This document shows positions 866 through 14,091 of a DNA stretch of 20,000 nucleotides, piece by piece (position 1 is the first letter of the stretch; the number at the start of each line of letters is the position of its first letter). The stretch is from an uncultured virus (IMG/VR IMGVR_UViG_3300035208_000814) (lineage: Duplodnaviria > Heunggongvirae > Uroviricota > Caudoviricetes), in IMG/VR virus record IMGVR_UViG_3300035208_000814; one strand, given 5' to 3'. The position numbers and the translations under genes are program-made. Below the pieces are notes generated by a model, which was given only the letters and a program-made list of their open reading frames with translations, was not told the origin of the DNA and ran no database searches.

Positions 866-1100
866 TAAACCCTGTACACCCGGATTAAAGTATCCAATAC
901 CAACCCCGCGTTGCTATGCTAATTATGAAAAGTGTGAAGAGTGTGAAAGTTGCATTTTATATGTGAAGTGTCTGACATTGTCGGTTGAATTAGCCTTGAA
1001 TTGTCCTGATACCCTTCAAAAACGCCGCGATTCACTCCAAGAAGAATACCGGGAGGAACTATCCCTCTGTCATGAGCACGAATCAAATCAAAAGGGTTAA
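855..1100 (+). CDS. Small Cys-rich hypothetical protein
   Basis: CY...CEECESC..C pattern; overlaps previous stop; GGAG upstream. Confidence 0.65.
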   Translation: MLINKPCTPGLKYPIPTPRCYANYEKCEECESCILYVKCLTLSVELALNCPDTLQKRRDSLQEEYREELSLCHEHESNQKG

Positions 1101-1124
1101 ATACTTTCAAGTCAATCTCTATGG
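1089..1124 (+). promoter_or_regulatory. Archaeal-type promoter driving the tRNA/ncRNA cluster
   Basis: Purine-rich BRE-like run then TTAAATA at 1097-1103; downstream ATACTTnnAAGTCAA shared with the promoter at 6646. Confidence 0.6.
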
Positions 1125-1218
1125 GTAACGTCTGATTTCGGTCAGATGAGTTCAGGCGTTCAATCCAACAGTAAAAGTAACTAATAACTACTTTTACTTT
1201 CGACAACATAATATACTT

Positions 1219-1291
1219 GGGATTATAGGGTAGTCAGGCATCCTTCCAGACTTGGACTCTGGAGACTGCGGTTCAATTCCGCGTAATCCCA
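1219..1291 (+). tRNA. tRNA-Pro(TGG)
   Basis: GGGATTA/TAATCCC acceptor; CCAGA-CTTGGAC-TCTGG anticodon arm; GGTTCAATTCC T arm. Confidence 0.93.
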
Positions 1292-1425
1292 TAGGGGAAT
1301 GACGCATTAATGGTTAATGCACACATCATCCGATAAGTATATCCTCCGTAGATATATAAGTTGCTTGTTTGTGGTCTGTCTATAGACGTATAGATGGTAT
1401 TGGTTACAGTCCAATCATTCCCCTA
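1292..1425 (+). ncRNA. tRNA-like RNA with enlarged central domain
   Basis: GGGAATG/CATTCCC acceptor; GCAT/ATGC D stem with GG loop; ATTGG-TTACAGT-CCAAT T-like arm; about 75-nt insert in place of the anticodon arm. Confidence 0.65.
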
Positions 1426-1437
1426 GTAGAAACGTAT

Positions 1438-1560
1438 GCGGGGATGGCTCAGTTTGGGAACAGCACATATCATGTCTTACTATCAATTACTAGTATTGGC
1501 AATAGAGTGAGATGGTCAGAGTGTACATAATATGCGTGGGTTCAAATCCCACTCCCTGCG
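1438..1560 (+). ncRNA. tRNA-like RNA with extended anticodon arm (or intron-containing tRNA of unresolved identity)
   Basis: GCGGGGA/TCCCTGC acceptor; GCTCAGTTTGGGAACAGC D arm; GTGGG-TTCAAAT-CCCAC T arm; long bulged hairpin instead of a canonical anticodon loop. Confidence 0.7.
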
Positions 1561-1565
1561 TTAAT

Positions 1566-1635
1566 GATTGTATCGCCAATGGTAGGCAAGCAGTCTCCAA
1601 AACTGCCGATGTGAGTTCAAGTCTTACTACAGTCA
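1566..1635 (+). tRNA. tRNA-Trp(CCA)
   Basis: GATTGTA/TACAGTC; GCAGT-CTCCAAA-ACTGC; GTGAG-TTCAAGT-CTTAC. Confidence 0.9.
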
Positions 1636-1639
1636 TTTT

Positions 1640-1712
1640 GCTAATGTAGCACAATTGGTAGTGTCCCATCCTGTTAAGATGGTGGTTGCAAGTTCGAGTC
1701 TTGTCATTAGCG
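1640..1712 (+). tRNA. tRNA-Asn(GTT)
   Basis: GCTAATG/CATTAGC; CCATC-CTGTTAA-GATGG; GCAAG-TTCGAGT-CTTGT. Confidence 0.93.
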
Positions 1713-1716
1713 TTGA

Positions 1717-1787
1717 ACATCATTAGTGTAGAGGTAGCACGATTCGTTTACACCGAATCAGAATAGGTTCGATTCCTGTATGATGTA
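1717..1787 (+). tRNA. tRNA-Val(TAC)
   Basis: ACATCAT/ATGATGT; ATTCG-TTTACAC-CGAAT; ATAGG-TTCGATT-CCTGT. Confidence 0.92.
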
Positions 1788-1859
1788 TGTCGTGTAGTAT
1801 ATTGGCTAGTATTGTGGCCTCATAAGCCACGGAAGGAAGTTCGATTCTTCCCATGACAA
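1788..1859 (+). tRNA. tRNA with CAT anticodon (Met; Ile2 not excluded)
   Basis: TGTCGTG/CATGACA; GTGGC-CTCATAA-GCCAC; GGAAG-TTCGATT-CTTCC. Confidence 0.92.
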
Positions 1860-1979
1860 TATAATAGTTACAGAGATCATAACTCTGACTATTAGAATGT
1901 ATCTTAACTACATGTCACTGTTCCTCCGTAGAATATACTGAATGGTTAAGTGGTGTTACATACCAATATCAATGTAGTA

Positions 1980-2039
1980 AGGTTGATCATTCAATTGGAT
2001 AGGATTACGTAAATCAGGGTTCAAGTCCCTGTCAACCTT
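1980..2039 (+). ncRNA. Anticodon-less tRNA-like RNA (about 60 nt)
   Basis: AGGTTGA/TCAACCT acceptor; ATTC-AATTGGATA-GGAT D arm; only 9 nt (TACGTAAAT) before the CAGGG-TTCAAGT-CCCTG T arm. Confidence 0.8.
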
Positions 2040-2040
2040 T

Positions 2041-2112
2041 GTGATTGTAAGGTAACAGTAAGCCTATCAGGTTGTGACACTGAAAGATGGAGTGCAACTC
2101 TCCACTATCACA
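2041..2112 (+). tRNA. tRNA-His(GTG)
   Basis: GTGATTG/CTATCAC (one mismatch); TCAG(G)-TTGTGAC-(A)CTGA; TGGAG-TGCAACT-CTCCA; atypical D and T loops. Confidence 0.8.
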
Positions 2113-2120
2113 TGCACTCG

Positions 2121-2340
2121 TTTCCCGATATATGTTCTGGTGCAGATTAGAAAATATATTACTCAGTATCATACGCATTTGAGTATAAATATTGAAGTAT
2201 GACGTAGCATGAGTAAACGTGATGATGACGCATGGTAACGAAATAAGAAGTCACCTTACTATATGGGCATACGCTGTATAGTTCGTAGTTCGGTATGTGA
2301 ATCTCCCGCCAGAGAGAGCAGAACCAATATGTCTGGCAAA
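2121..2340 (+). ncRNA. Unknown structured RNA, about 220 nt
   Basis: Terminal pairing GATATAT-GTTCTG (2127-2139) with CAGAAC-ca-ATATGTC (2319-2333); internal helices TACTCA/TGAGTA, TCATAC/GTATGA, GCATAC/GTATGT; bounded by tRNAs. Confidence 0.5.
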
Positions 2341-2344
2341 GTAA

Positions 2345-2417
2345 CCGTATGTAGTAGAGGGGTTAATACGATGGGCTGTAAACCTATTGACCGCAAGTTC
2401 AAATCTTGCCATACGGA
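2345..2417 (+). tRNA. tRNA-Tyr(GTA), archaeal/eukaryotic type
   Basis: CCGTATG/CATACGG (C1-G72, A73); ATGGG-CTGTAAA-CCTAT; short variable loop. Confidence 0.93.
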
Positions 2418-2502
2418 TTGTCCATATGACATTACCCTGCATGGTGATTAATCTGGATGGGTGGGGAATAAGGTGTCAAGGAATACCCATCATTATATTA
2501 GA

Positions 2503-2586
2503 GTGGTTATGCTAGAGTGGTCTATTAGGTACGGTTTAGACCCGTATGGTTTAGTACCTTCGTAAGTTCAAATCTTACTAACCACA
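2503..2586 (+). tRNA. tRNA-Leu(TAG)
   Basis: GTGGTTA/TAACCAC; TACGG-TTTAGAC-CCGTA; long variable arm. Confidence 0.92.
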
Positions 2587-2587
2587 T

Positions 2588-2654
2588 TGGTAGTAGATGG
2601 GCATAAGGTATGAGGTAGAGCCTTAAATGTACAATCTTCCTCAATCTATTACCA
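2588..2654 (+). ncRNA. Structured RNA motif, related copy at 7084-7138
   Basis: TGGTAGTAGAT/ATCTATTACCA closing stem; TGAGG/CCTCA inner stem. Confidence 0.5.
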
Positions 2655-2674
2655 TTACTTGTATAGAAAATAAA

Positions 2675-2755
2675 GGGTGTATGCCAGAGCGGTTATTGGG
2701 CCAGACTTAAGATCTGGTGGTTAGTCCTTCACAAGTTCGATCCTTGTTACACCCA
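2675..2755 (+). tRNA. tRNA-Leu(TAA)
   Basis: GGGTGTA/TACACCC; CCAGA-CTTAAGA-TCTGG; variable arm; ACAAG-TTCGATC-CTTGT. Confidence 0.93.
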
Positions 2756-2780
2756 TCAACCTTTAACTAGGTGATTAACT

Positions 2781-2912
2781 ATGTCAATTAAACTTCCACT
2801 AACATCTAAATGTAGAATATCATATGATTTAAAATATGTTTTTAAATCAAGATATGATTATAAGTGTATATTAAAGGGATGGAGAATAGGATACTTTAAA
2901 ATAGTTAAGTGA
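2781..2912 (+). CDS. Small basic hypothetical protein (43 aa)
   Basis: AGGTGA SD; MSIKLPLTSKCRISYDLKYVFKSRYDYKCILKGWRIGYFKIVK; below the ORF-track cutoff. Confidence 0.55.
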   Translation: MSIKLPLTSKCRISYDLKYVFKSRYDYKCILKGWRIGYFKIVK

Positions 2913-2917
2913 TTACT

Positions 2918-3034
2918 GTGAATACAGAAGAAAACTTACTACTACTAATATTGATGTTCTGTGTAATACCAATGATAATAGCAATTATAACAACATATTA
3001 TTATGTTAAATGGTTAAACAAGCATCACTTGTGA
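2918..3034 (+). CDS. Small single-TM protein (38 aa)
   Basis: GTG start after GTGA; MNTEENLLLLILMFCVIPMIIAIITTYYYVKWLNKHHL. Confidence 0.5.
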   Translation: MNTEENLLLLILMFCVIPMIIAIITTYYYVKWLNKHHL

Positions 3035-3040
3035 TTAATT

Positions 3041-3190
3041 ATGAGTAGAACTATAAGACATGGGGAGAGGACTTGTGGGCGATGGTGTCCGTGGTGTTAT
3101 CCCAAAGAGTCTTATAATGGTTCTATTCGTATGAGACGTAGATTACAAATACATAGAGAATTAACAGAATATTTCACTCCCGTAGTGTAA
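3041..3190 (+). CDS. Small basic Cys-containing protein (49 aa)
   Basis: GTGA upstream; MSRTIRHGERTCGRWCPWCYPK...; 3' end overlaps tRNA-Gln. Confidence 0.55.
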   Translation: MSRTIRHGERTCGRWCPWCYPKESYNGSIRMRRRLQIHRELTEYFTPVV

Positions 3191-3251
3191 CGCTGGTAAA
3201 TCATCAAAGTCTTTGAAACTTTGGACGTAGGTTCAACTCCTGCCGGGAGAA
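3176..3251 (+). tRNA. tRNA-Gln(TTG)
   Basis: CTCCCG/CGGGAG (1:72 mismatch); AAAGT-CTTTGAA-ACTTT; GTAGG-TTCAACT-CCTGC. Confidence 0.9.
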
Positions 3252-3264
3252 TTTAATAAATTAC

Positions 3265-3335
3265 TCACCTATAGAACAATGGCAGTTCACACTTCTTATA
3301 AGGGTGCTACGTGGGTTCAATTCCCTCTAGGTGAA
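3265..3335 (+). tRNA. tRNA-Ile(TAT)
   Basis: TCACCTA/TAGGTGA; GAAC/GTTC D stem; CACTT-CTTATAA-GGGTG; GGG-TTCAATT-CCC. Confidence 0.88.
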
Positions 3336-3362
3336 TGTAACCTCTAGATAGTAGGGGTTAAT

Positions 3363-3433
3363 GCACATATGGCAGATTGGATATGCGTTGGATTGCAGAT
3401 CCGATAATGTAGGTTCAATTCCTACTATGTGCT
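3363..3433 (+). tRNA. tRNA-Cys(GCA)
   Basis: GCACATA/TATGTGC with U73; TTGGA-TTGCAGA-TCCGA. Confidence 0.92.
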
Positions 3434-3436
3434 TAT

Positions 3437-3510
3437 GGGGATATAATGTAGTCTGGATTGCATACCGGACTTTTAATCCGGTTGTATGGGTTCAAGTCCC
3501 ATTATCCCCG
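3437..3510 (+). tRNA. tRNA-Lys(TTT)
   Basis: GGGGATA/TATCCCC; CCGGA-CTTTTAA-TCCGG; ATGGG-TTCAAGT-CCCAT. Confidence 0.94.
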
Positions 3511-3586
3511 TTTATAATTTTAGTATCGTTATATGACCAGTGGGAACTATCCAAATTATTTCGTAAAGTAAAACGGAGAGGTTTAA

Positions 3587-3817
3587 ATGTCAAATGAAGA
3601 GAAATATGTAGTAGTGCCAATTGAATATGATGGAGAATTAGGACAGATTGACTTTGAATCATATAGTCACTCTACCATTGAAGCCACACGGGAAGATATG
3701 GAAGAGAATATTGATCCTGATGACTATGAAAGAGTTGCAATCTGTAAAGTTATTGAAGTATTTAAGGCCGGAAAGTGGACATTAGAGGAAAAGTATTGTC
3801 CAGTGACGAAGAAGTAA
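3587..3817 (+). CDS. Acidic hypothetical protein
   Basis: GAGGT SD; ORF track; tight packing. Confidence 0.75.
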   Translation: MSNEEKYVVVPIEYDGELGQIDFESYSHSTIEATREDMEENIDPDDYERVAICKVIEVFKAGKWTLEEKYCPVTKK

Positions 3818-4018
3818 ATGGTATCTTCCATGATTAACGGTAGACTATATCGAGTATATACTGAACTTGGATGTACGATGATTGAAAACCCAATGTATAT
3901 CATTGCTAACACTCTCGTTGAAGCAGATGAAAAAATGAAGACACAATGGAGGAACTTGGGGCAAACACCACCATCTACACATTCTATTGATCTAGTTGCA
4001 AATATGGTGTATGATTAA
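3818..4018 (+). CDS. Hypothetical protein
   Basis: Abuts both neighbours. Confidence 0.65.
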   Translation: MVSSMINGRLYRVYTELGCTMIENPMYIIANTLVEADEKMKTQWRNLGQTPPSTHSIDLVANMVYD

Positions 4019-4296
4019 TGTATCAGCGTAATTATACATTCTCGCGGGATGCTAATAAAAAACAAGGTGTTATTAATGAGATTGGTGAAAACACACTAAC
4101 CATTAGTAATTTTCAACACTACACGTATATGTTAAGCCCGAAATTACTATCAATGCTTGTACCGGGAGATGAGGTATTATACAAAACTAATGCCCGAAAC
4201 AATGAATTACTATTTGTCAAGGTGATTAAATGGAACAGAAAGTTGAGGAAACAACTGAAAGAATGTACTGTCCAACCTGTAAACTACCCCGATTAA
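4018..4296 (+). CDS. Hypothetical protein
   Basis: TAATG stop/start overlap. Confidence 0.7.
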   Translation: MYQRNYTFSRDANKKQGVINEIGENTLTISNFQHYTYMLSPKLLSMLVPGDEVLYKTNARNNELLFVKVIKWNRKLRKQLKECTVQPVNYPD

Positions 4297-4385
4297 CCTA
4301 TAGAACAATTGGATGGTGGTATACATGGGTACGATGTTTCAAGTGTGATAATGCAGTAACTTGTCAGGAGATAACATATGACTAA
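4263..4385 (+). CDS. Zinc-ribbon microprotein (40 aa)
   Basis: MYCPTCKLPRLTYRTIGWWYTWVRCFKCDNAVTCQEITYD with CPxC and CxxC; fills the gap before the Nampt-family gene. Confidence 0.6.
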   Translation: MYCPTCKLPRLTYRTIGWWYTWVRCFKCDNAVTCQEITYD

Positions 4386-5706
4386 TCTATTTGATCTAAT
4401 ATACATGGCTGATGCCTACAAGTACACTCATTACAAACAGTATCCACCGGGAATACAAAATGTCTATAGTTACTATGAATCTAGGGGAGGACGTTGGCCT
4501 AACACTGTATTCTTTGGATTACAATACTTCCTAAAGCGATACCTAGTTGGGCAAGTTATAACTCAACAGATGATTGATGAAGCAGAGCCTAGTATCAATG
4601 CTGTATTTGGACATCAATACTTCAGCAGAGAAGGTTGGGAGTATATTATTGACACGTACAAGGGACGATTACCAGTTACAATTAGGGCAGTTGAAGAGGG
4701 TTCTATCAATCCAACTAGAACAGTCCTAATGAACATAGTTAATAATGACACTGAATGTTATTGGTTAACCAATTACCTTGAAACACTATTGAGCAATCTA
4801 TGGTATCCATGCACTGTAGCAACTGAATCCTATCAAATCAAAAAGTTATTACAAACCTACTATACTAAAGCAAACCAACAGATGAATGGTATAGAGTTAA
4901 ATGACTTTGGTATGCGGGGATGTAGTTGTCCAGAGCAAGCAGCCATTGGTGGTATGGCACACCTCACATCCTTCATAGGAACAGATAACATATTGGGTAT
5001 TCAAGCCGCTAAAAAGTATTACAATGCAACTCAACCCATAGGTGTTAGTGTGGCAGCAGCCGAACATAGCACGATAACAGCATGGAGTAGAGAGCGAGAG
5101 GCAGATGCATACCTAAACATGATAAGAGTCTATCCAGATGATGCTATACTCTCTCTAGTGTGTGATAGTTATGACACAGAGAATGCATTAGAGAACATCT
5201 TTGGATGGGAACTATACGAGTGGATAATGCATCACAGTGGCAAAGTAGTTATGCGCCCTGACAGTGGTGATCCATGTGCAATGTCCATGTTAACCCTAGA
5301 GAAACTTCATAATCTATTCGGTGCAGAGAAGAACAAAGCCGGATACAATGTGTTAAATCCTCATGTTGGAGTTATCTATGGAGATTCCATTGATTATGAA
5401 ACCATTAAGAAAATAATGGACAATGTAGTATTAGCGGCGAAGTATGCACCGTCTAACATTATCTTTGGTAGTGGTGGAGGACTCCTTCAAAAGTTAAACA
5501 GAGACACAAATCAATACGCATTTAAATGCAGTGCAGTTAGAGTGTATGATAAGTGGGAAGATGTTTGTAAAACCCCAATTACTGATCCCAATAAGAGAAG
5601 TAAAGCCGGGAGAGTTGGAGAGGACTTACCAATAGTCTTTGACAGTGGTAAACTATTACGTGAAACAACATTCGATGAGATTAGAAAGAAGTTGGAAGTG
5701 ACATAG
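4378..5706 (+). CDS. nadV: Nicotinamide phosphoribosyltransferase family protein (Nampt/NadV-like)
   Basis: ADAYKYTHYKQYP, WYPCTVAT, DFGMRG, AAEHS, SLVCDSYD, RPDSGDP, FGSGGGLLQ motifs. Confidence 0.92.
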   Translation: MTNLFDLIYMADAYKYTHYKQYPPGIQNVYSYYESRGGRWPNTVFFGLQYFLKRYLVGQVITQQMIDEAEPSINAVFGHQYFSREGWEYIIDTYKGRLPVTIRAVEEGSINPTRTVLMNIVNNDTECYWLTNYLETLLSNLWYPCTVATESYQIKKLLQTYYTKANQQMNGIELNDFGMRGCSCPEQAAIGGMAHLTSFIGTDNILGIQAAKKYYNATQPIGVSVAAAEHSTITAWSREREADAYLNMIRVYPDDAILSLVCDSYDTENALENIFGWELYEWIMHHSGKVVMRPDSGDPCAMSMLTLEKLHNLFGAEKNKAGYNVLNPHVGVIYGDSIDYETIKKIMDNVVLAAKYAPSNIIFGSGGGLLQKLNRDTNQYAFKCSAVRVYDKWEDVCKTPITDPNKRSKAGRVGEDLPIVFDSGKLLRETTFDEIRKKLEVT

Positions 5707-5880
5707 ATGAAACGATGGGTGACTATTAGAAACAAATGTGAGTATGCCGACATTATAACAGGTGTATGCAGAGTTAAGAAATCTAATGTACATTGCAGCC
5801 CGGAGAGGATTGCAGAGTTAAATTGTGAGAGTAGAATTGCTCGCATGGAATATCTAAATGAAGAAGTAACAGAGGGATAA
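5707..5880 (+). CDS. Small Cys-rich hypothetical protein (57 aa)
   Basis: ATG directly after the Nampt stop; four spaced Cys; ends 1 nt before the next ATG. Confidence 0.55.
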   Translation: MKRWVTIRNKCEYADIITGVCRVKKSNVHCSPERIAELNCESRIARMEYLNEEVTEG

Positions 5881-5881
5881 T

Positions 5882-6316
5882 ATGAACTTAAAGAACATGA
5901 TTATGGGCAAGTCAGCAATGATTTGTGAAACGAAGGCCGAAGTTGGAACAGAGACATTTAAGTATGATGTATATGGAGTATACAACGTAACTAATCCAAC
6001 AGCAGTTGTAAAGCAGAAGACCTATGATATAGGGATTGAAGGGTATGCAGACAAAATCGTAGTGAAGATCCTTGAACACAGTAAGTTGGGTGTACATTAT
6101 GAAGTTAAACGTCAGGAGTTTGCCGGATTCAATAGTGATGATGTCAAGAAATTCTACGATGGTTTCATTGAGAGTAAGCGTAATGAATACTCCGAAATTA
6201 CCAAGACATCAAAGGCCGAATATGAGAAGGCCACAATGGAGAAGAATGCAGTTAAAGTTTACGAACAGAATTTAGTGGCATTAATAGCACAGATCCAGAA
6301 AGGAAAGTTAAACTAA
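5882..6316 (+). CDS. Hypothetical protein, paralog of 142-579
   Basis: GAGGG SD; shared FxxFNxDDxKxFYD motif; near-identical length. Confidence 0.8.
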   Translation: MNLKNMIMGKSAMICETKAEVGTETFKYDVYGVYNVTNPTAVVKQKTYDIGIEGYADKIVVKILEHSKLGVHYEVKRQEFAGFNSDDVKKFYDGFIESKRNEYSEITKTSKAEYEKATMEKNAVKVYEQNLVALIAQIQKGKLN

Positions 6317-6335
6317 TTAATACGGAGAGATTAAA

Positions 6336-6635
6336 ATGAAGATTGGTAACATGGAATTAAGTGGCATTACTAAGGTAATGTTCTACCGGAAGAATCTTTT
6401 TGAACGAATGCCCACTGGAAAGGGTGGTTTCTACTGGTTTGATGCCAAGAGATGTAAATTCATTAGCGACAGGGACATTGTAGAGGTAATCAATGGCTGT
6501 AACAATAACCCAAAGAAACACGTATGGAGTCACGGCGACACCATAAATGTCATCAGAAAGGATCAGCGCGAAACATCCCGGTCAATCCTTCAAGCCCCCA
6601 TTTTACGGGCTGAAAGGACAATCCCCCTCTGGTGA
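6336..6635 (+). CDS. Hypothetical protein
   Basis: GGAG SD; ORF track. Confidence 0.7.
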   Translation: MKIGNMELSGITKVMFYRKNLFERMPTGKGGFYWFDAKRCKFISDRDIVEVINGCNNNPKKHVWSHGDTINVIRKDQRETSRSILQAPILRAERTIPLW

Positions 6636-6637
6636 CG

Positions 6638-6670
6638 GCGTAACCTTTATATACTTATAAGTCAACCTAG
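6638..6670 (+). promoter_or_regulatory. Archaeal-type promoter for the ncRNA array/Ro60 locus
   Basis: TTTATATA at 6646-6653; ATACTTATAAGTCAA matches ATACTTTCAAGTCAA at 1101. Confidence 0.65.
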
Positions 6671-6756
6671 TAGGTAGAGGCTGTGTTCATTTACGGTTAC
6701 TTCACTTTGACCTTGAAACTAACACCGTAGATACTAGTTCTCCTCTAACTAACTAG
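6667..6756 (+). ncRNA. Candidate Y RNA 1
   Basis: TAGAGG/CCTCTA outer stem; TGTG..GTTCT internal loop; ATTTACGGT/ACCGTAGAT inner stem; TACTTC loop start; upstream of Ro60. Confidence 0.7.
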
Positions 6757-6786
6757 CAATAGTCAAGTTAACAGTTCAATGGATAC

Positions 6787-6859
6787 TAATGGGATGTGGA
6801 AGTTTACAGTTACTTCACACTTGGCGAAATTATCACTGTAGACAATTGTTCTCCCGTTA
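6787..6859 (+). ncRNA. Candidate Y RNA 2
   Basis: TAATGGGA/TCCCGTTA; TGTGGAA..GTTC; GTTTACAGT/ACTGTAGAC; TACTTC. Confidence 0.7.
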
Positions 6860-6967
6860 TTCCTTGATAAGTTTCAGTATATAAGTCCTTCCCGAAAAGG
6901 ATGAGGCTGCCGTTTGGTGGTGTGACGAAGTAGGGAAGGCATAATTAAAAATAAAACATAATATATC

Positions 6968-7046
6968 ATGATAGGTTGCGAGAGATTACAGTTACTCCTT
7001 GCCTTGGAAAGATAACTAACACTGTAATCATTAATTCTCCTATTAT
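6968..7046 (+). ncRNA. Candidate Y RNA 3
   Basis: ATGATAGG/CCTATTAT; TGCG..ATTCT; GATTACAGT/ACTGTAATC; TACTCC. Confidence 0.7.
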
Positions 7047-7151
7047 TAATTGACATCTACAGTGGTATAATTATCCTTAAATGGGTAGTAGATGTATGAG
7101 CGAGGAGATTACCACTGAATCCTCAATCCCAATTACCAGTGAAATATTACA

Positions 7152-7247
7152 TGAGTAAGTTGCGTATATTACAGTTACTTCTTGGTTACAAAACACACAG
7201 ACTAATCATCTGTATTATTTATCTGTAATAGCCTGTTCTCTTACTCA
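7152..7247 (+). ncRNA. Candidate Y RNA 4
   Basis: TGAGTAAG/CTTACTCA; TGCG..GTTCT; TATTACAG/CTGTAATA; TACTTC; extra ACAGA/TCTGT hairpin in the loop. Confidence 0.7.
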
Positions 7248-7337
7248 ACCTTGATACGACTTAATTGTATTGACGGATAATGTGCAAAAGTGTCGGTAGT
7301 CACTATAAAAACTACCATTAATTTTGAAGTGATTTTT

Positions 7338-8027
7338 ATGCGTACTAACACAAAGAGTGTAAACCATCCAAAACCATCTAAATTACAAAACACATCAAGT
7401 AATGAAATAGAGAATAAGGTTAACCTGTATACACAAGTAGCAAGTTGCCTTGTAAATGAAGATAAGTTCTATGAATCAGGTAAAAATGCTAATAAGAACC
7501 TGCTAGAATCTATTAAGAAAGTAGATGATACAGAATGGATTTTGAAGTTAGCGACTTATGCCCGAAACGAATTACACCTAAGAACTGTACCATTAGTGCT
7601 AACTTCTGAGATAGCATTGGACTCTAACCGTAATAAAGATTTCGGTGCAAGGAAATATGTTAATGCAGTAGTTCAGCGTCCAGATGAGATACCCGAATTG
7701 TTAGCATATAACAAACAAAGATGTGCAGAGTTAGGGAGAGACAAATTACCGCAAATGATTCTCAAAGGTCTAACCCCAGTGTGGTCAAAATTTGGTAGAT
7801 ACCACATTGCCAAATACCGTAAAGATGATAGTAAGTTCACTCTCCGTGATGCAATGTTCTTAACTCATCCAATGCCATCTGACGAGTTAGAGACGACATA
7901 TAATGAACTTGCCAACAAAACATTAAAGTTAGACGAATCTACAGAAACATGGGAGTCATATATCAGTGAGCATGGTTCAACCAGAGAGAATTGGGAACAT
8001 ATAATTGATATGTGGATAATTACATAG
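7338..8027 (+). CDS. Ro60/TROVE ribonucleoprotein, N-terminal part
   Basis: EDKFYES, KLATYARNELHLRTVP, VQRPDE, AKY, LRDAMFLTHP, ETWE motifs typical of TROVE; ATG 7338 after GTGA preferred to GTG 7290. Confidence 0.9.
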   Translation: MRTNTKSVNHPKPSKLQNTSSNEIENKVNLYTQVASCLVNEDKFYESGKNANKNLLESIKKVDDTEWILKLATYARNELHLRTVPLVLTSEIALDSNRNKDFGARKYVNAVVQRPDEIPELLAYNKQRCAELGRDKLPQMILKGLTPVWSKFGRYHIAKYRKDDSKFTLRDAMFLTHPMPSDELETTYNELANKTLKLDESTETWESYISEHGSTRENWEHIIDMWIIT

Positions 8028-8035
8028 TAATAATC

Positions 8036-8707
8036 ATGAGAAATTATAAGAAGTGGACAGAGGAAGAGAATACTTATTTACGTCTCAATTGGTGTAGAGC
8101 ATCTGAACATGAGTTAGAGACTACACTAGGGCGTAAGTTTACTGCTATAAATAGACAAGCATTCATGAACGGTATATCTGGAAGAGAAATTAATAGAAAG
8201 TTATGGTCTGATTCTGATATACAATATTTAACAGAGAATTGGGTATGGAGTAGTAAAGAAGAACTAGAATACCACCTCAATCGAAATATTAATGCTATAA
8301 AGCGTCAAGCGTACTTGTTAAAACTACCTAGGCGCGTAGCCCGTGGTAAGAATTGCTTTAAGTTTATATCTAGTATAGATGGTAAATCATATAATGCATT
8401 CTATAGCCGTGGGTATGCCTTGGTACGTATTAACAGAAAGAATATACCATTACATAGAGTAGAAATGGAGAAACTACTAGGTAGGAAATTATCACCCAAT
8501 GAGAGAGTTCATCATAAAAATGGCATTAAGAATGATAATAGACCAGAAAACTTAATATTATATGATAATCATATGAGACATGCTCATATAGATACCAGAC
8601 GTGCCGAAATTGCTGAACAGTTCATAGCAGAAAAACAACTTATAAAGGAGTATGAGGATTATTATGAAAGTAAAACAGGTAAACAATTATATGGCTATGT
8701 TGCGTAA
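8036..8707 (+). CDS. HNH homing endonuclease with two Myb/SANT-like HTH repeats, inserted in Ro60
   Basis: WTEEENTYL.. and WSDSDIQYL.. repeats; LHRVEMEKLLGRKL...VHHKNGIKNDNRPENL HNH motif. Confidence 0.88.
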   Translation: MRNYKKWTEEENTYLRLNWCRASEHELETTLGRKFTAINRQAFMNGISGREINRKLWSDSDIQYLTENWVWSSKEELEYHLNRNINAIKRQAYLLKLPRRVARGKNCFKFISSIDGKSYNAFYSRGYALVRINRKNIPLHRVEMEKLLGRKLSPNERVHHKNGIKNDNRPENLILYDNHMRHAHIDTRRAEIAEQFIAEKQLIKEYEDYYESKTGKQLYGYVA

Positions 8708-9464
8708 TTTGAATAACATAACTAAAGTGGGTGTATCACAGCATCATATTGATAAAGTATGTGCCGCGTTAACTGATGTTAATGCTGTAGAGAAGTCCAA
8801 ACAGTTACCCTTTAGGTTTTTTACGGCTTACAAGCAACTTGGGGGAGAATATTCTATATGGGCGAAATCCCTTGAACAGGCCATGACAATATCATGTGCT
8901 AATATCCCTAAACTAAGTGGACGAACAGCCATATTAGTAGACACATCGGGCTCAATGCATTCAGCAATCAGTGGTAAATCCTCTGTACAATGTGTAGAGA
9001 TTGCCTCATTAATGGGGGCTATGCTACATCATGTATCAAATGATAATGTAGTTATCACATTTGATTCAGATGCATTTGTAGTCAACCAACTAATAGGGGA
9101 ATCTGTATTATATGATGCTAATATGATATGGACTAGCCGTAATGGTGGGGTAACATATCTATATAAAGCACTGGAATTAATGATTAAGCAGAGAATATAC
9201 GTTGATCGTATCATTGTATTAAGTGATATGCAGACGTATGGGGCACAAGAGAAAAGATACCTTGATATGTATAAAAATGTAGGTAATCCTAATGTTAAGA
9301 CATTCACAGTGGATTTACAAGGTTATTCCCACAATTCAAATACATTAGGTTCAGATAATGTCTATCAACTGGCCGGATATTCTGATCGTATCTTTAATCT
9401 TATCGCAGCGTATGATCAAGATTCAGCCGCCATCGTCAATTATATTCAGAATCTAGTGGTGTAA
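8664..9464 (+). CDS. Ro60/TROVE C-terminal part with vWA domain
   Basis: YMAMLRNL, SKQLPFRF, MIDAS DTSGSM, GGVT, IIVLSDMQ, VDLQGY, GYSD; same reading frame as the N-terminal part; start at 8652 or 8664. Confidence 0.9.
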   Translation: MKVKQVNNYMAMLRNLNNITKVGVSQHHIDKVCAALTDVNAVEKSKQLPFRFFTAYKQLGGEYSIWAKSLEQAMTISCANIPKLSGRTAILVDTSGSMHSAISGKSSVQCVEIASLMGAMLHHVSNDNVVITFDSDAFVVNQLIGESVLYDANMIWTSRNGGVTYLYKALELMIKQRIYVDRIIVLSDMQTYGAQEKRYLDMYKNVGNPNVKTFTVDLQGYSHNSNTLGSDNVYQLAGYSDRIFNLIAAYDQDSAAIVNYIQNLVV

Positions 9465-9500
9465 CAATACCTTTAAGTAATATTACAACCAATATTATTT
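9465..9500 (+). promoter_or_regulatory. Probable archaeal promoter
   Basis: CCTTTAAGTA at 9470-9479, about 22 nt before GGG 9501; resembles CCTTTATATA at 6644. Confidence 0.5.
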
Positions 9501-9606
9501 GGGTACGGTATTACAATGCCACAGTAATATTGACCTTATGTTTTTGCCAAAAGACAATGTGAGGGACCAATCTCCCTCTTTTAACCTTACTTACAGAGTG
9601 AACACT

Positions 9607-10080
9607 ATGAAAGTATTATATGATACAAGACCGGGAACTAATGGTGGTGAAGTGGATAGATACTATACATTCCCTGATGGTCTTAAACTACACGTTTACG
9701 AAACACCGTGGATGGTAGATGAACCTAGAAAGAAAATAAAGGAGGAGAAACCAATGGTTTTATATGCAAGAGTTAAATTTGAAAGTGGAGATAAACAATA
9801 TGATTATCTAACATACATCACAGGACTTAAACCGGGAGATGATGTAATAGTAGAAGCGGGATCAGGAATTGCCTATGGTAAATTTGCCGGGTATTCATCT
9901 ATCCGTGGAATGGGTACTAAGTTTATTACAGCGAAGGTTGATGGTAATTTCATTGAGAATACCAGAGTTAAGCGTGATGCAATAGTGTATGGTAACAAAT
10001 GCTTTACTCATTACAAATATAGTGATATAAATTGTCAGGTATGTTTAATATCATCATCTTGTAAAGAGAGAACCAATTAA
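9607..10080 (+). CDS. Hypothetical viral protein (alternative internal start 9754)
   Basis: VKF...YDYLT...LKPGDDVIVE beta-rich motif; GGAGG before ATG 9754; C-terminal Cys cluster. Confidence 0.65.
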   Translation: MKVLYDTRPGTNGGEVDRYYTFPDGLKLHVYETPWMVDEPRKKIKEEKPMVLYARVKFESGDKQYDYLTYITGLKPGDDVIVEAGSGIAYGKFAGYSSIRGMGTKFITAKVDGNFIENTRVKRDAIVYGNKCFTHYKYSDINCQVCLISSSCKERTN

Positions 10081-10370
10081 TGATATGGCAGGATGCGGTA
10101 ATATCAGTAGGTTCAGTAGTATTCACGATAGCATTGATACCCCAATTAAAAGACTGTATATACAATAAGGCAATTGTAAATGTTTGGAGTGCATCAATGA
10201 CCTCAATAATACTATTCATCTACTGTATAACCTATTACACCCTCTCAATGTATATAGCAGCAATACCATTAACAGCAACAGTTTGGGGCATGATTGCCAT
10301 GTATTCATTCAAAAATCAAAGACTGACCTCCGTTTGTCAAATCGAGTCCGATACACTCAGAAAGTATTAA
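10080..10370 (+). CDS. PQ-loop/SemiSWEET-like three-TM membrane protein
   Basis: TM1 ends in LIPQL; three hydrophobic segments in 96 aa. Confidence 0.7.
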   Translation: MIWQDAVISVGSVVFTIALIPQLKDCIYNKAIVNVWSASMTSIILFIYCITYYTLSMYIAAIPLTATVWGMIAMYSFKNQRLTSVCQIESDTLRKY

Positions 10371-10398
10371 ATACTTATACCTCATATATAGTATTAGG
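10359..10398 (+). promoter_or_regulatory. Probable archaeal promoter
   Basis: GAAAGTA-TTAAATACTT; same TTAAATACTT core as at 1097. Confidence 0.55.
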
Positions 10399-10686
10399 TT
10401 GACATCAATGGACAAGATTAGTGATTTAAAGTTAATGTTTCAAAAAGACATGGACACTGTTAAGCGGGGTGGAAAAGCCATACGTATCCGACAGTTTATA
10501 GATAACTTGGCAGACGAGATTGGCCTGTATCTACTCCCCTATGATGGTGTCTTAAACATTGCTAGTATCTGTCTTGAAGATGTCAACAAAACTCATTTTA
10601 AAAATGTAGTTAAGAGGACTTGGAGAGTATCGCTTGATGAAGATGGAACCGAATGGATTATGGTAAATAGTCCGATTAAGAGGTGA
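10399..10686 (+). CDS. Hypothetical protein
   Basis: ORF track; TTG about 25 nt after the TATA, possibly leaderless. Confidence 0.65.
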   Translation: MTSMDKISDLKLMFQKDMDTVKRGGKAIRIRQFIDNLADEIGLYLLPYDGVLNIASICLEDVNKTHFKNVVKRTWRVSLDEDGTEWIMVNSPIKR

Positions 10687-10928
10687 TTACAGTGAGAGTT
10701 AATGTTATTGTTGATAAATTCAACGGTATTGACGCTAGTGAGGTTTATGTTGATGACTTAATAAACATGATTAAGTTAGAACAGAACCTTACAGAAGAAC
10801 CCCGTGGGGATATATCAGTTTATAATTCACTTCGTAAGTACATTCTCAATCACAATCTACGTATATCCGTGAAGTTGCGCGGAGGTAGAGTAATGTTGAT
10901 TAGGAATGAAGCGGTTGGAACGGATTAG
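10683..10928 (+). CDS. Hypothetical protein
   Basis: GTGA start/stop overlap. Confidence 0.65.
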   Translation: MITVRVNVIVDKFNGIDASEVYVDDLINMIKLEQNLTEEPRGDISVYNSLRKYILNHNLRISVKLRGGRVMLIRNEAVGTD

Positions 10929-11151
10929 GCAGTATGTATTTGCTGAATGGGATAAAGATTATGCCTATGAAACAACTGACATATCTGTAGTATTGCAATG
11001 TGACAATAGAGTGTCCCGATATTACCTAATGAAGATGGTTAATGAGGGTATTCTAAAACAACTAAAGTATCATGGGCACACATGGTATATCCACAGTAAT
11101 CAAGCCCATGAGTTTAAACAGTATCGACACATCGGAGTCAGGATACTATAA
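10906..11151 (+). CDS. Winged helix-turn-helix protein
   Basis: TTDISVVLQCDNRVSRYYLMKMVNEGIL...TWY pattern. Confidence 0.65.
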   Translation: MKRLERIRQYVFAEWDKDYAYETTDISVVLQCDNRVSRYYLMKMVNEGILKQLKYHGHTWYIHSNQAHEFKQYRHIGVRIL

Positions 11152-11218
11152 TTGAAAATTATTAGGTTACTTTTTCCTAATAAATTAACTGATCAGTAAA
11201 TTAAATGGAGGAATTTAA

Positions 11219-12214
11219 ATGGCTAAAACAACTAAAGCAACAACTGAAATCGACACAAAGAAATTTGTAGAGATGCTTGTAAAGGCAGAATTTTCACAAA
11301 CTGACGCACAGAAGTCAGTGGATACATTAGTGGCAGCAGTAAACGCAAATATGGGTGACGAACCTGTATCAGTAAAGACTAATGTAATTCTCAAAAAGAT
11401 TAGAGAGAAGATCAAAGCAGCAAAGATGATTACAAAGGATGTCATTGTCCTAACAGTTGGGGAAAGGCGTGACTCTAACAACAAGAACCGCACTGACGCA
11501 TTAAAGATGTATCATGAAAATGCAGATGCAGCACTATCACAGGGTCTTATCAAGATGATTAGGGGAGAGCCTACACCTGTAGACAACAAGCCCACACTTG
11601 ATAAAGCCGGGAAGTGGGAGAACAAGAACTACGGCAAACCGTGGCCTGTTAAAATGATACGCGACATCACAGTGTTAATGGACAACAACATCACTGCACT
11701 CTACGTAGACATCAATGTAGAAGTTGGGGGTAAATATAAAGTCTATGGTAAGATGTCAGCAGACGGAAATAATTTCTACGCATCTAATGATCCATCACCC
11801 ATCTTTGTAAGCAAGATGACACCCATTGAATTGTACAACGCAGCATACGAAGTTATGAAGACATCTGATTATGCATTTGATGTATACGGGGCAACAGAAA
11901 CCGATGTCACTAACAAGGTTGTAATGGTAAAGGGATATGCACAAACCATTGGGACAACTGGCAGTGGAAAGGGTAAAGTCCGTATTAATGATGACAGTGG
12001 AGCGGCAATCACTGGATTTGCACAGGACAATGTATTGTCAGAAGCAATGCAGAGGGTAACTGTCAACTCCGAGGTCATTTTAATCGGTAGGTTACAGGAC
12101 TCAGACAATCCAGATTTCGGTAGATCACTGAAAGCAACTGGAATGATTGTTAACCCACAGTCAAGTGCAGCATCATCCGGTGCAATGGACAAACTGAAAG
12201 ACTTAGACTTCTAA
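11219..12214 (+). CDS. Probable OB-fold single-stranded DNA-binding protein (RPA-like)
   Basis: GGAGG SD; OB-like strands (VRINDDSG, EVILIGRL, VGGKYKVYGK); acidic-aromatic tail DLDF; near the Sak4-like ATPase. Confidence 0.6.
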   Translation: MAKTTKATTEIDTKKFVEMLVKAEFSQTDAQKSVDTLVAAVNANMGDEPVSVKTNVILKKIREKIKAAKMITKDVIVLTVGERRDSNNKNRTDALKMYHENADAALSQGLIKMIRGEPTPVDNKPTLDKAGKWENKNYGKPWPVKMIRDITVLMDNNITALYVDINVEVGGKYKVYGKMSADGNNFYASNDPSPIFVSKMTPIELYNAAYEVMKTSDYAFDVYGATETDVTNKVVMVKGYAQTIGTTGSGKGKVRINDDSGAAITGFAQDNVLSEAMQRVTVNSEVILIGRLQDSDNPDFGRSLKATGMIVNPQSSAASSGAMDKLKDLDF

Positions 12215-12240
12215 GTATTTCTTTTATTATATATTTTTTT
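12215..12240 (+). terminator. Oligo-T archaeal-type terminator
   Basis: T-rich tract ending in T7 right after the stop. Confidence 0.5.
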
Positions 12241-12272
12241 ATAAGTATAACAATGATAGCGGAGTATACTAA

Positions 12273-12644
12273 ATGACAAATGAAAAAGCGGGTATTGGTA
12301 TATGGTTAACTGTATGGGCTATTCTAGCGTTACTGGGATATTTCATCTATAGTGGAGTTAATGGAGCATTAGCAATACTACTAATATATCTAGTAGTTGG
12401 TTTCTGTACATTACTATCAATCATACCATTCGTAGGTATTTTCTTACAGAATGGATTTGTGACTAATACAGTATTCCCATACCTATTCAAAATAACCGGG
12501 ATATATTCAACATGGTTAACAGACGTAATCTACGTATATTACCTAGTTATCGGTAGTATCATGTGTGTAATAATGTCCGGTGCAGTTATATTTATTATAC
12601 TTGCATTTATATTCGGAATGCGTATTAAGAAACCGTGGAAGTAA
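12273..12644 (+). CDS. Multi-TM membrane protein
   Basis: GGAG SD; highly hydrophobic; IIPFVG motif; T7 tract downstream. Confidence 0.8.
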   Translation: MTNEKAGIGIWLTVWAILALLGYFIYSGVNGALAILLIYLVVGFCTLLSIIPFVGIFLQNGFVTNTVFPYLFKITGIYSTWLTDVIYVYYLVIGSIMCVIMSGAVIFIILAFIFGMRIKKPWK

Positions 12645-12728
12645 TCTCACTATATTATTTTTTTATACATAACTATTTTACATATCACTTACATATTACT
12701 AACTAACACAATACCGTGGAGGTATTAC

Positions 12729-13556: not shown

Positions 13557-13836
13557 TTCATTTGACTCTACTAAAGTAATTGAGATTTGCCCCATAGGTG
13601 AATCTAGAGGTAGAGTAATAGGAGTTGGTGAATTAATAGAATATAGATTTACTATATTAATACCAGATGAATTTAAGATAGATAATGTTGTCGTTAAACC
13701 AAAAGTATTCATTAAGATGATAAAATATCTTGGGGATAGATGGATAAATGTATCAGATGTATATGCTAAACAACTAATGGTTCCATCTTCACGTTATAAA
13801 GACTGTACATCAATGTTGGTGGATAAGGTAGAGTGA
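13546..13836 (+). CDS. Hypothetical protein
   Basis: TTG 13546 after GGTG preferred (track start 13522). Confidence 0.6.
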   Translation: MTTDSFDSTKVIEICPIGESRGRVIGVGELIEYRFTILIPDEFKIDNVVVKPKVFIKMIKYLGDRWINVSDVYAKQLMVPSSRYKDCTSMLVDKVE

Positions 13837-13876
13837 TTACATTAACTATAAGAAGGAGACAAACAAATCTACATAT

Positions 13877-14065: not shown

Positions 14066-14091
14066 ACAGTAATACAAGGAGATGATACAAT

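What the first reader, a model, noticed from the sequence alone, without database searches (positions are those of the whole stretch)
1980..2039. Anticodon-less mini tRNA
Seen: perfect 7-bp acceptor stem, D arm with GG and perfect T arm with TTCAAGT, but the anticodon arm plus variable loop is reduced to 9 nt. Intact stems argue against random decay. Inference: a mascRNA-like tRNA mimic that could be a processing signal for RNase P/Z, a decoy immune to anticodon nucleases, or the tRNA-like module missing from the candidate Y RNAs supplied in trans.
Basis: partly seen in the sequence, partly recalled or inferred. Interest (0 to 1): 0.75.

Follow-up and report, generated by a model that had tools for sequence, protein, structure and literature searches.

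The report
Phage tRNA gene missing anticodon arm
An uncultured phage carries, inside its tRNA gene cluster, a well-formed 60-base tRNA gene that lacks only the arm that reads codons; it probably still gets cut out like a tRNA, but nothing yet shows that the phage needs it.

Summary
Window 1980-2039 (+) has a 7-bp acceptor stem, U8, a 4-bp D arm with A14/G18G19/A21, a 5-bp T arm with loop TTCAAGT, and a discriminator. Nine bases (TACGTAAAT) stand where position 26, the anticodon arm and the variable loop should be. Rfam's tRNA model scores it 33.5 bits (cut-off 29), with 13 anticodon-arm positions deleted. Two separate assemblies from two studies carry it unchanged, so it is not an assembly error.

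It lies in a 15-member tRNA cluster of a novel phage, one base before an odd tRNA-His. No relative of this phage with a tRNA cluster could be fetched. There is therefore no covariation, no syntenic full-length tRNA to compare, and no RNA data.

My reading is a one-step deletion derivative of a tRNA gene. It keeps every feature that RNase P, RNase Z and the CCA-adding enzyme use, so it should mature into a non-decoding tRNA-shaped RNA and punctuate the precursor. A selected decoy role is possible but unshown.

Three other viruses carry reduced tRNA-like genes (one, 59 nt, has the same layout plus an encoded CCA). None of them has Ro60, which weakens the Y-RNA idea. Interest is moderate.

The parts
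1980..2039 (+). 60-nt tRNA-like gene without an anticodon stem-loop (whole element, acceptor 5' strand to discriminator)
   Evidence: Rfam tRNA model 33.5 bits, model positions 1-71, 13 anticodon-arm positions deleted; sequence read; only hit of its kind in the window
1980..1986 (+). acceptor stem 5' strand AGGTTGA; pairs with 2032-2038 (7 of 7 Watson-Crick)
1987..2005 (+). U8 and C9, then the D arm: stem ATTC/GGAT and loop AATTGGATA with A14, A15, G18, G19, A21
2006..2014 (+). 9-nt linker TACGTAAAT. The model reads it as position 26, stubs of the anticodon stem (AC/GT; TACGTA is a palindrome), and a 4-nt variable loop AAAT whose last T could pair with A15 (Levitt pair)
   Evidence: alignment; the Levitt-pair reading is inference
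2015..2031 (+). T arm: stem CAGGG/CCCTG (5 Watson-Crick pairs) and loop TTCAAGT
2032..2039 (+). acceptor stem 3' strand TCAACCT and discriminator T2039; no encoded CCA
2040..2112 (+). adjoining tRNA-His(GTG)-like gene (2041-2112) plus T2040, which can pair with A2112 as a -1:73 pair. D loop without GG; T loop TGCAACT
   Evidence: Rfam 45.1 bits; missed by ARAGORN; spacing; the -1:73 pairing is read from the sequence
1922..1932 (+). motif TCCTCCGTAGA, 47 nt upstream of the element. Its only other copy (1342-1352) lies 85 nt upstream of the other aberrant tRNA-like gene. Possible promoter or processing signal
   Evidence: and sequence; function is inferred
1862..1894 (+). hairpin directly after tRNA-Met; may end the preceding transcription unit
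   Evidence: fold; role is inferred

Best explanation
The element is a tRNA gene that lost the outer 13 bases of its anticodon arm (three stem pairs plus the 7-base loop), most simply in one deletion across the hairpin. Everything else of the tRNA is intact. The end-processing enzymes read the acceptor stem, the T arm and the D/T-loop elbow, not the anticodon. The transcript should therefore still fold into the upper part and core of the tRNA L-shape. RNase P should cut it at 1979/1980. RNase Z, or the RNase P cut that makes the 5' end of the adjoining tRNA-His, should cut it after the discriminator at 2039/2040. It should then receive CCA and accumulate as a 60-63-nt RNA that cannot read a codon. 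The one activity that follows directly from the anatomy acts in cis: it punctuates the precursor and sets free the 5' end of tRNA-His with U2040 as an extra -1 base that can pair with A73. I see no evidence that the free RNA has a job of its own, so I treat it as a processed relic or at most a processing module. Shown: the anatomy, the tRNA ancestry, the position in the cluster, and that it is not an assembly error. Inferred: transcription, folding, all cleavages, CCA addition, and the one-step origin.
For: - tRNA model match above the curated cut-off, with a clean 13-position gap confined to the anticodon arm.
- The linker keeps the stem stubs as the palindrome TACGTA plus a normal 4-nt variable loop, as a single symmetrical deletion would leave them.
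- All 16 remaining stem pairs, and U8, A14, G18, G19, A21 and the T54-A58 loop letters, are present.
- It sits on the coding strand in a cluster of 15 tRNA-model hits and 1 nt from the next tRNA. Other neighbours in the cluster are 0-5 nt apart.
- All 15 of 15 tRNA-like genes here, this one included, lack an encoded CCA and are followed directly by T. So it shares the cluster's 3' context.
- Identical copies occur in assemblies of two runs from two studies and in L001.
- In mascRNA, mimicry of the tRNA elbow is held sufficient for RNase P and RNase Z recognition (passages of PMC11693755). Plant mitochondrial t-elements with non-canonical cloverleaves are cut by the same enzymes (passages of PMC1920247).
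- That RNase P, RNase Z and CCA-adding enzymes accept acceptor/T-arm substrates is recalled textbook knowledge, not drawn from a call.
Against: - No homologue was found, so neither conservation nor decay can be shown. There was no DNA match in 50,697 phage records and none in viral contigs by three patterns.
- No RNA data exist.
- The tRNA-like fold is not the predicted minimum-free-energy fold. The D stem has pairing probability 0.02 or less and the T stem under 0.5 in the ensemble.
- Perfect stems and the shared upstream motif TCCTCCGTAGA before both aberrant tRNA-like genes could mean selection rather than a relic.
- A 59-nt element of the same layout, with encoded CCA and neatly placed between two genes, exists in an unrelated virus. 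That suggests the design can be useful in its own right.
- Close spacing to the next tRNA is general in this cluster, so the link to tRNA-His may mean nothing.
Confidence: 0.55

Rival explanations
1. A selected, trans-acting tRNA mimic. The phage keeps a codon-blind upper-half tRNA as bait or sponge for proteins that recognise the acceptor end or elbow of tRNAs. Examples are host toxins that modify or cut the 3' end, or tRNA-binding enzymes. It would belong to a wider, undescribed set of reduced tRNA-like genes in uncultured viruses.
For: - All tertiary-contact letters and all 16 stem pairs are intact.
- It is the first gene after a motif shared only with the other aberrant tRNA-like gene at 1438-1560.
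- Reduced tRNA-like genes recur in viruses with a related polymerase: 54 nt in G005 at 33.5 bits and 48 nt in G003, and 59 nt in G013 with the same arm layout, a 9-nt linker and encoded CCA.
- That is 3 short arm-less hits among 54 tRNA-model hits in 55 viral records, against 0 of 50 hits in a bacterial MAG.
- The phage also carries other likely counter-defence genes: NAMPT and many tRNAs.
- An earlier scan note (e1-5632663) describes a similar 63-nt case. I did not check it.
Against: - No conservation, expression or partner is known.
- The other examples are not homologous to this one, and each is a singleton too.
- 3 of 54 against 0 of 50 is not significant.
- In three tRNA-rich viral contigs only 2 of 131 hits were 66 nt or shorter, and neither was of this type.
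- The preserved stem stubs point to a recent deletion.
- An anticodon-less RNA cannot bait anticodon nucleases, the best-known tRNA-directed defences.
Confidence: 0.27
2. A partner of the phage Ro60 protein. The mini-tRNA would supply in trans the tRNA-like module that bacterial YrlA Y RNAs carry in cis, working with the small hairpin RNAs encoded just upstream of the Ro60 gene.
For: - The window encodes a Ro60/TROVE protein with a vWA domain, split by an HNH gene (7290-9464), on the same strand.
- Four paralogous hairpin units and a DUF3800-X RNA lie just upstream of it, and none has a tRNA-like part.
- The element has the same parts as the YrlA tRNA-like domain (T arm, D arm, acceptor-like stem; passages of PMC4201824).
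Against: - The element is 5.25 kb from the Ro60 gene, while YrlA genes lie within 4 kb.
- No YrlA model match in 1100-3700 at E<=10.
- It has no GNCGAAN0-1G motif. The only window match to GNCGAANG is at 1197-1204 on the minus strand.
- 0 of 3 other viruses with reduced tRNA-like genes have a TROVE gene, and 2 of the 3 records are rated complete.
- No case of a Y RNA split into two molecules came up in the passages I read.
Confidence: 0.05
3. Not a real feature: a chance look-alike or an assembly artefact.
For: - The fold is not thermodynamically outstanding (z -1.42).
- ARAGORN and the window-wide Rfam run at gathering threshold did not report it.
Against: - 33.5 bits against the tRNA model with E 1e-4 to 1e-5.
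- About 0.014 chance hits expected per window for my strict pattern.
- It sits inside a tRNA cluster in register with its neighbours.
- It is identical in separate assemblies of two runs.
Confidence: 0.02

Closest known systems
Plant mitochondrial t-elements (tRNA-like processing signals; Forner et al. 2007, PMC1920247, passages read)
   Same: Both are tRNA-derived structures with a non-canonical cloverleaf that keep the T-arm motif GGTTCRANYCC (here GGTTCAAGTCC) and an acceptor stem. t-elements are thought to be cut by RNase P and RNase Z and so to define the ends of neighbouring RNAs. This is the best functional analogy for the cis role I propose, and for the intercistronic 59-nt element in G013.
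   Different: t-elements lie next to mRNAs in organelle genomes and are a loose operational class, not a homologous family. This element lies inside a phage tRNA cluster next to another tRNA. Cleavage has not been tested here.
mascRNA / menRNA (Rfam RF01684; structure paper PMC11693755, passages read)
   Same: Both are about 60 nt, tRNA-shaped and unable to decode. mascRNA is released by RNase P and RNase Z and CCA-tailed, and its elbow mimicry explains the processing.
   Different: The RF01684 model gives only 20.4 bits against a cut-off of 42.5. mascRNA has a small D region and an anticodon-equivalent arm with a longer stem and compact loop, and it lacks the linker residues of the tRNA junction. 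This element has a full canonical D arm, U8 and a variable loop, and no anticodon-equivalent helix at all. mascRNA is vertebrate and sits at the 3' end of a long non-coding RNA.
YrlA Y RNAs of bacteria and phages (Rfam RF02553; Chen et al. 2014, PMC4201824, passages read)
   Same: Both have a tRNA-like domain with T arm, D arm and acceptor-like stem, without a decoding anticodon loop. YrlA occurs in Ro60-encoding genomes, phages included, and this phage encodes Ro60.
   Different: YrlA is circularly permuted (closed acceptor-like stem, open at the anticodon side into a Ro60-binding stem with GNCGAAN0-1G) and lies within 4 kb of the Ro60 gene. This element has normal tRNA topology, no binding stem, no motif and no model match, and lies 5.25 kb away.
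Ordinary tRNA pseudogenes in phage tRNA clusters (recalled general knowledge, from no call)
   Same: It is a tRNA-derived gene that can no longer decode, sitting among working tRNA genes.
   Different: The damage is one clean, symmetrical loss of a single arm, with every other stem and tertiary-contact letter intact. The usual picture is scattered mismatches or truncation.

Membership tests
tRNA (Rfam RF00005) | Score at or above the curated gathering score (29 bits) | tested here: met
   33.5 bits, model positions 1-71
tRNA (Rfam RF00005) | 7-bp acceptor stem, D arm with G18G19, T arm with T-Psi-C-type loop | tested here: met
   7 of 7, 4 of 4 and 5 of 5 pairs; loops AATTGGATA and TTCAAGT
tRNA (Rfam RF00005) | Anticodon arm with a 7-nt loop that presents an anticodon | tested here: not met
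   13 model positions deleted and no loop remains. ARAGORN reports no tRNA here. It is therefore tRNA-derived but not a decoding tRNA.
mascRNA-menRNA (Rfam RF01684) | Score at or above the gathering score (42.5 bits) | tested here: not met
   20.4 bits, E 0.044-0.67; only the acceptor and T arm align
mascRNA-menRNA (Rfam RF01684) | Anticodon-equivalent helix with compact loop and reduced D region (as described in PMC11693755) | tested here: not met
   No helix is possible in the 9-nt linker and the D arm is full-sized
YrlA (Rfam RF02553) | Match to the covariance model | tested here: not met
   No YrlA hit at E<=10 in 1100-3700 or at E<=1 elsewhere in the window
YrlA (Rfam RF02553) | Permuted topology with a Ro60-binding stem carrying GNCGAAN0-1G; within 4 kb of the Ro60 gene on the same strand | tested here: not met
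   Normal topology with an open acceptor stem. No motif in the element (the N0 form GNCGAAG is absent from the sequence read). Same strand, but 5.25 kb upstream of the Ro60 gene.
YrlA (Rfam RF02553) | Bound by Ro60/Rsr | not testable with these tools
   Needs a pull-down
t-elements (operational class) | tRNA-like fold with the motif GGTTCRANYCC and an acceptor stem | tested here: met
   GGTTCAAGTCC at 2018-2028 and a 7-bp acceptor stem; motif definition
t-elements (operational class) | Ends coincide with mapped ends of neighbouring RNAs (RNase P / RNase Z cleavage) | not testable with these tools
   No RNA run holds this sequence
tmRNA tRNA-like domain | Acceptor and T arm joined through an mRNA-like domain with a tag reading frame | tested here: not met
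   ARAGORN finds no tmRNA, and the two acceptor strands are only 45 nt apart

The most novel reading that the evidence does not exclude
Uncultured tailed viruses of this polymerase lineage keep a class of codon-blind, reduced tRNA genes. Candidates are this 60-nt one, the 59-nt CCA-bearing one in G013, the 48-54-nt ones in G003 and G005, and the 123-nt rod-bearing one at 1438-1560. They would act as working RNAs: mimics of the tRNA acceptor end and elbow, matured by the host tRNA machinery, that either soak up tRNA-directed host defence or tRNA-binding proteins or steer processing of viral transcripts. That would be a phage counterpart of mascRNA and t-elements that has not been described.
Probability: 0.2. 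Interest if true: 0.75.

Novelty: new variant of a known kind. Interest (0 to 1): 0.38.

Why it matters
Phage tRNA genes are currently read as codon-supply or counter-defence tools. A tRNA-shaped RNA that cannot decode, yet is kept and matured, would point to a second use of the tRNA fold by phages: a processing signal or bait. It would also give an easy bench test, namely one small RNA, two cleavage sites and CCA addition. If it is only a fresh relic, it is still a clean natural example of hairpin-sized deletion in a tRNA gene. It also warns that tRNA finders miss such genes: ARAGORN and the filtered Rfam run both did.

Tried and rejected
**Searches for homologues, all empty**
- blastn of 1860-2120 against the phage collection found nothing.
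- An exact 35-mer and an exact 21-mer from the element found nothing in viral contigs.
- A pattern of the two acceptor strands with a free interior gave 119 or more loci. None had a T arm, so all are chance hits.
- A pattern for the odd tRNA-His gave 2 chance hits.
- The NAMPT protein found no relative in viral contigs.
- In metagenome contigs NAMPT found only an identical contig (L001) and two distant, short ones.
- A polymerase alignment in genome contigs found one 13-kb contig (L087, 59% identity) that does not reach a tRNA cluster.
- The three closest viral-contig relatives by polymerase (44-50% identity; G001, G002, G004) have no tRNA-model hit at all. Their records are 23-70% complete.

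**Expression**
- No RNA holder was listed for the stretch.

**Paralogues and parent tRNA**
- No tRNA in the window resembles the element. The best score with model R1 is 17.3 bits (tRNA-Lys), against 96.4 for the element itself.
- The MAFFT alignment of the cluster was uninformative.
- Among 50 viral records the best R1 hit was a full-length tRNA-His(GTG) at 43.4 bits. I treat this only as a faint hint to the parent type.

**Methods that fell short**
- Model R1 did not recover the G013 and G005 elements, so it is too sequence-specific for a class survey.
- The 50-record tRNA survey listed only the best 150 of 624 hits, so short weak hits were not visible. I re-ran only 3 of those 50 records in full.

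**Other checks**
- The two spacers that share TCCTCCGTAGA share nothing else.
- The sigma-70 promoter scan was at shuffle level, and no terminator-like sites were found.
- The 64-nt hit in G039 is the 3' part of a longer tRNA.
- The L058/L062 hit of my scanner was not examined further.
- I looked for an archaeal bulge-helix-bulge intron in the 123-nt element by eye on the fold and saw none. This was not a formal test.

**Literature**
- 'anticodon-less' returned 1 paper, which was irrelevant.
- 'tRNA-like' + 'lacks the anticodon' + 'phage' returned 1 paper, which was irrelevant.
- I found no description of anticodon-arm-less tRNA genes in phages with these two searches. Subscription journals are not covered.

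Full report
**What is there**

Window 1980-2039 (+) reads AGGTTGA TC ATTC AATTGGATA GGAT TACGTAAAT CAGGG TTCAAGT CCCTG TCAACCT T.
- The acceptor stem has seven Watson-Crick pairs.
- U8 is present.
- The D stem has four pairs, and its loop carries A14, A15, G18, G19 and A21.
- The T stem has five pairs, with loop TTCAAGT.
- A discriminator base follows the acceptor stem.

Nine bases stand where a tRNA has position 26, the 17-base anticodon arm and the variable loop.

Rfam's tRNA model scores the element 33.5 bits (curated cut-off 29) over model positions 1-71, with 13 positions of the anticodon arm deleted. The model reads the linker as position 26, two stem stubs (AC and GT), and a four-base variable loop AAAT. 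TACGTA is a perfect palindrome, so the two sides of the old stem now abut. The last T of the linker could make the 15:48 Levitt pair with A15; this is my inference.

ARAGORN and the filtered whole-window Rfam run missed the element.

**More than chance, and not an artefact**

A strict pattern of my own (a T arm followed at once by the 3' strand of a 7-bp acceptor stem, interior under 36 nt) hits only this site in the window. Block shuffles of 1.18 Mb of viral DNA gave 0.8 such hits, about 0.014 per 20 kb.

Energy alone is unremarkable. The z-score is -1.42. The tRNA-like fold is -12.3 kcal/mol against a minimum-free-energy fold of -14.3, and the D stem is weak.

Contigs of two public runs from two studies (groundwater 2022, landfill 2018) cover the site without a difference. 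A 77-kb contig spans the whole window with one other letter in 20 kb. A 27-kb metagenome contig is identical over 1795-15703. These may be the window's own sources, but they are separate assemblies, so a mis-assembly is excluded. For the same reason there is no population variation to read.

**Setting**

The window is part of a novel tailed phage.
- Its family-B DNA polymerase is at most about 26% identical to any deposited phage. It is 45-61% identical to uncultured relatives.
- One 59% relative lies on a contig binned with a Candidatus Paceibacterota genome. Source names of more distant relatives point to archaea or Bacteroidales. The host is therefore open.

Bases 1218-3510 hold 15 tRNA-model hits on the + strand.
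- Twelve are ordinary tRNAs.
- One is a tRNA-His(GTG)-like gene at 2041-2112 with no GG in the D loop and T loop TGCAACT.
- One is a 123-nt tRNA-like gene at 1438-1560 in which 66 nt replace the anticodon arm.
- One is the element itself.

None of the 15 encodes CCA, and all 15 are followed directly by T. Neighbours within sub-clusters are 0-5 nt apart, and the element is 1 nt from tRNA-His. T2040 can pair with A2112 as a -1:73 pair of tRNA-His, and A1979 can pair with T2039.

The 11-mer TCCTCCGTAGA occurs twice in the window: 47 nt before the element and 85 nt before the 123-nt gene. In shuffles, 16 of 200 reached two matches of the 10-mer with up to one mismatch, so this is suggestive only. 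Each copy follows a hairpin that closes the preceding tRNA.

**Search for relatives**

None was found. The details are under Tried and rejected. The closest relatives that can be fetched either have no tRNA genes in the recovered part or are too short. There is no RNA run either.

**The kind recurs, thinly**

| Set searched with the tRNA model | Hits | Short, arm-less hits |
|---|---|---|
| 55 viral records sharing the polymerase family | 54 | 3 |
| The bacterial MAG that holds L087 | 50 | 0 (none shorter than 71 nt) |
| Three tRNA-rich viral contigs | 131 | 2 hits of 66 nt or less, neither of this type |

A fourth short hit among the 54 (64 nt, G039) is part of a longer tRNA.

The three short arm-less hits in the viral records are:
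- **G005, 54 nt, 33.5 bits.** It has an acceptor stem, a T arm, and half a D arm.
- **G003, 48 nt, 19.3 bits.** It has an acceptor stem, a T arm, and one small hairpin.
- **G013, 59 nt, 27.3 bits.** It reads GGGCATG T AGTC TAAACAATT GGCT TCGTCCATC GTGGG TTCAAGT CCTAC CATGCCC G and is followed by an encoded CCA.

The G013 element has the same plan as the window element: a 4-bp D stem, a 9-nt D loop and a 9-nt linker. Its D loop has no GG and its linker is not palindromic. It sits 2 nt after one ORF and 20 nt before the next on the same strand. The one normal tRNA of that virus also encodes CCA. The G005 element also lies between two same-strand ORFs.

In the three tRNA-rich contigs, the two short hits were a tRNA with a shortened anticodon arm and a stretch overlapping a weak YrlA-like match.

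These numbers are too small for a statistical claim, and the elements are not homologous to one another. None of G003, G005 and G013 has a TROVE/Ro60 gene, and two of the three records are rated complete.

**Reading**

The identity is secure: a tRNA-derived gene that cannot decode. The simplest origin is one deletion across the anticodon hairpin. That explains the clean 13-position gap and the abutting stem stubs.

RNase P, RNase Z and the CCA-adding enzyme rely on the acceptor stem, T arm and elbow. This is recalled knowledge, and it is supported for mascRNA by passages of PMC11693755 and for t-elements by PMC1920247. The RNA should therefore still be excised and CCA-tailed. In doing so it would free the 5' end of the neighbouring tRNA-His.

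I give 0.55 to this "processed relic or mere processing module" reading, 0.27 to a selected trans-acting mimic, 0.05 to a Ro60 partner, and 0.02 to chance. The remainder is unassigned.

The stated decoy idea does not work for anticodon nucleases, which need the loop. A decoy would have to target enzymes that act on the acceptor end or the elbow.

**Comparison with known families**

The element works most like a plant-mitochondrial t-element or like mascRNA, but it is a member of neither.
- The mascRNA model gives 20.4 bits against a cut-off of 42.5, and the architecture of the middle region differs.
- It is not a YrlA Y RNA: it has normal topology, no Ro60-binding stem or motif, no model match, and lies 5.25 kb from the Ro60 gene.
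- My two literature searches for anticodon-arm-less tRNA genes in phages found nothing relevant.

I rate it a new variant of a known kind, of moderate interest. It would become interesting if relatives show it to be conserved.

Noticed in passing
window 1438-1560 (+): A 123-nt tRNA-like gene (Rfam tRNA 33.1 bits). Acceptor, D and T arms are intact, but 66 nt replace the 17-nt anticodon arm and fold into an irregular rod. I could read no canonical anticodon loop and no obvious bulge-helix-bulge intron. It is preceded by the same TCCTCCGTAGA motif as the mini-tRNA.
   Followed up: partly
window 2041-2112 (+): A tRNA-His(GTG)-like gene (45.1 bits) that ARAGORN missed. Its D loop has no GG, its T loop is TGCAACT, it has a U6-U67 mismatch, its discriminator is A73, and T2040 can pair with A73 as a -1 base.
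   Followed up: partly
window 1342-1358 and 1922-1938 (+): TCCTCCGTAGA followed by an AT-rich TATA-like run. These are the only two copies in the window. Each lies after a hairpin and before one of the two aberrant tRNA-like genes. It may be a promoter or a processing signal.
   Followed up: partly
window 7290-9464 (+): A Ro60/TROVE gene in two pieces (7290-8027, and 8652-9464 with a vWA domain), with an HNH endonuclease ORF (8012-8707) between them that overlaps both. This may be a homing-endonuclease insertion or an intron.
   Followed up: no
window 6875-6947 (+): A DUF3800-X RNA motif (49.1 bits, cut-off 38.2) lies 343 nt upstream of the Ro60 gene. Its function is unknown according to Weinberg et al. 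2017 (PMC5737381). Short contigs from other organisms in run X2 match the same stretch with 7-8 differences.
   Followed up: partly
window 6691, 6804, 6986, 7169 (+): Four paralogous units start with TTACRGTTACTYC (0 of 200 shuffles reach the observed count). Each unit's 5' UACRGU can pair with a downstream ACYGUA, and the R/Y change is compensatory between copies. No Rfam match.
   Followed up: partly
window: 3' flank of all 15 tRNA-model hits, 1218-3510: None encodes CCA, and every one is followed directly by T (15 of 15). This suggests a shared 3'-processing context.
   Followed up: yes
L088:335-396 (+) (record G013): A 59-nt anticodon-less tRNA-like gene with encoded CCA. It starts 2 nt after one ORF and ends 20 nt before the next. 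Its arm layout matches the window element.
   Followed up: partly
L085, about 950-1450 on the reverse strand (record G003, rated complete): An intergenic stretch of about 600 nt holds at least four T-arm-like hairpins, including a 48-nt three-way tRNA-like element and a 69-nt tRNA-like with a short anticodon loop. This virus has no tRNA hit above the Rfam cut-off.
   Followed up: partly
L339:125-190 (-) (record G059): A YrlA-like permuted tRNA mimic (RF02553, 36.6 bits, below the cut-off of 69) lies inside the tRNA cluster of a 157-kb viral contig.
   Followed up: no
L087 (contig of a Candidatus Paceibacterota MAG): A 13-kb contig syntenic with window 10077-16400 (polymerase 59% identical). 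It carries a tRNA-Thr just upstream of the polymerase gene. This is a possible host hint, or a binning artefact.
   Followed up: partly
window 4378-5706 (+): A nicotinamide phosphoribosyltransferase (NAMPT) gene lies directly downstream of the tRNA cluster. It is 40-46% identical to NAMPT genes of many large phages.
   Followed up: no
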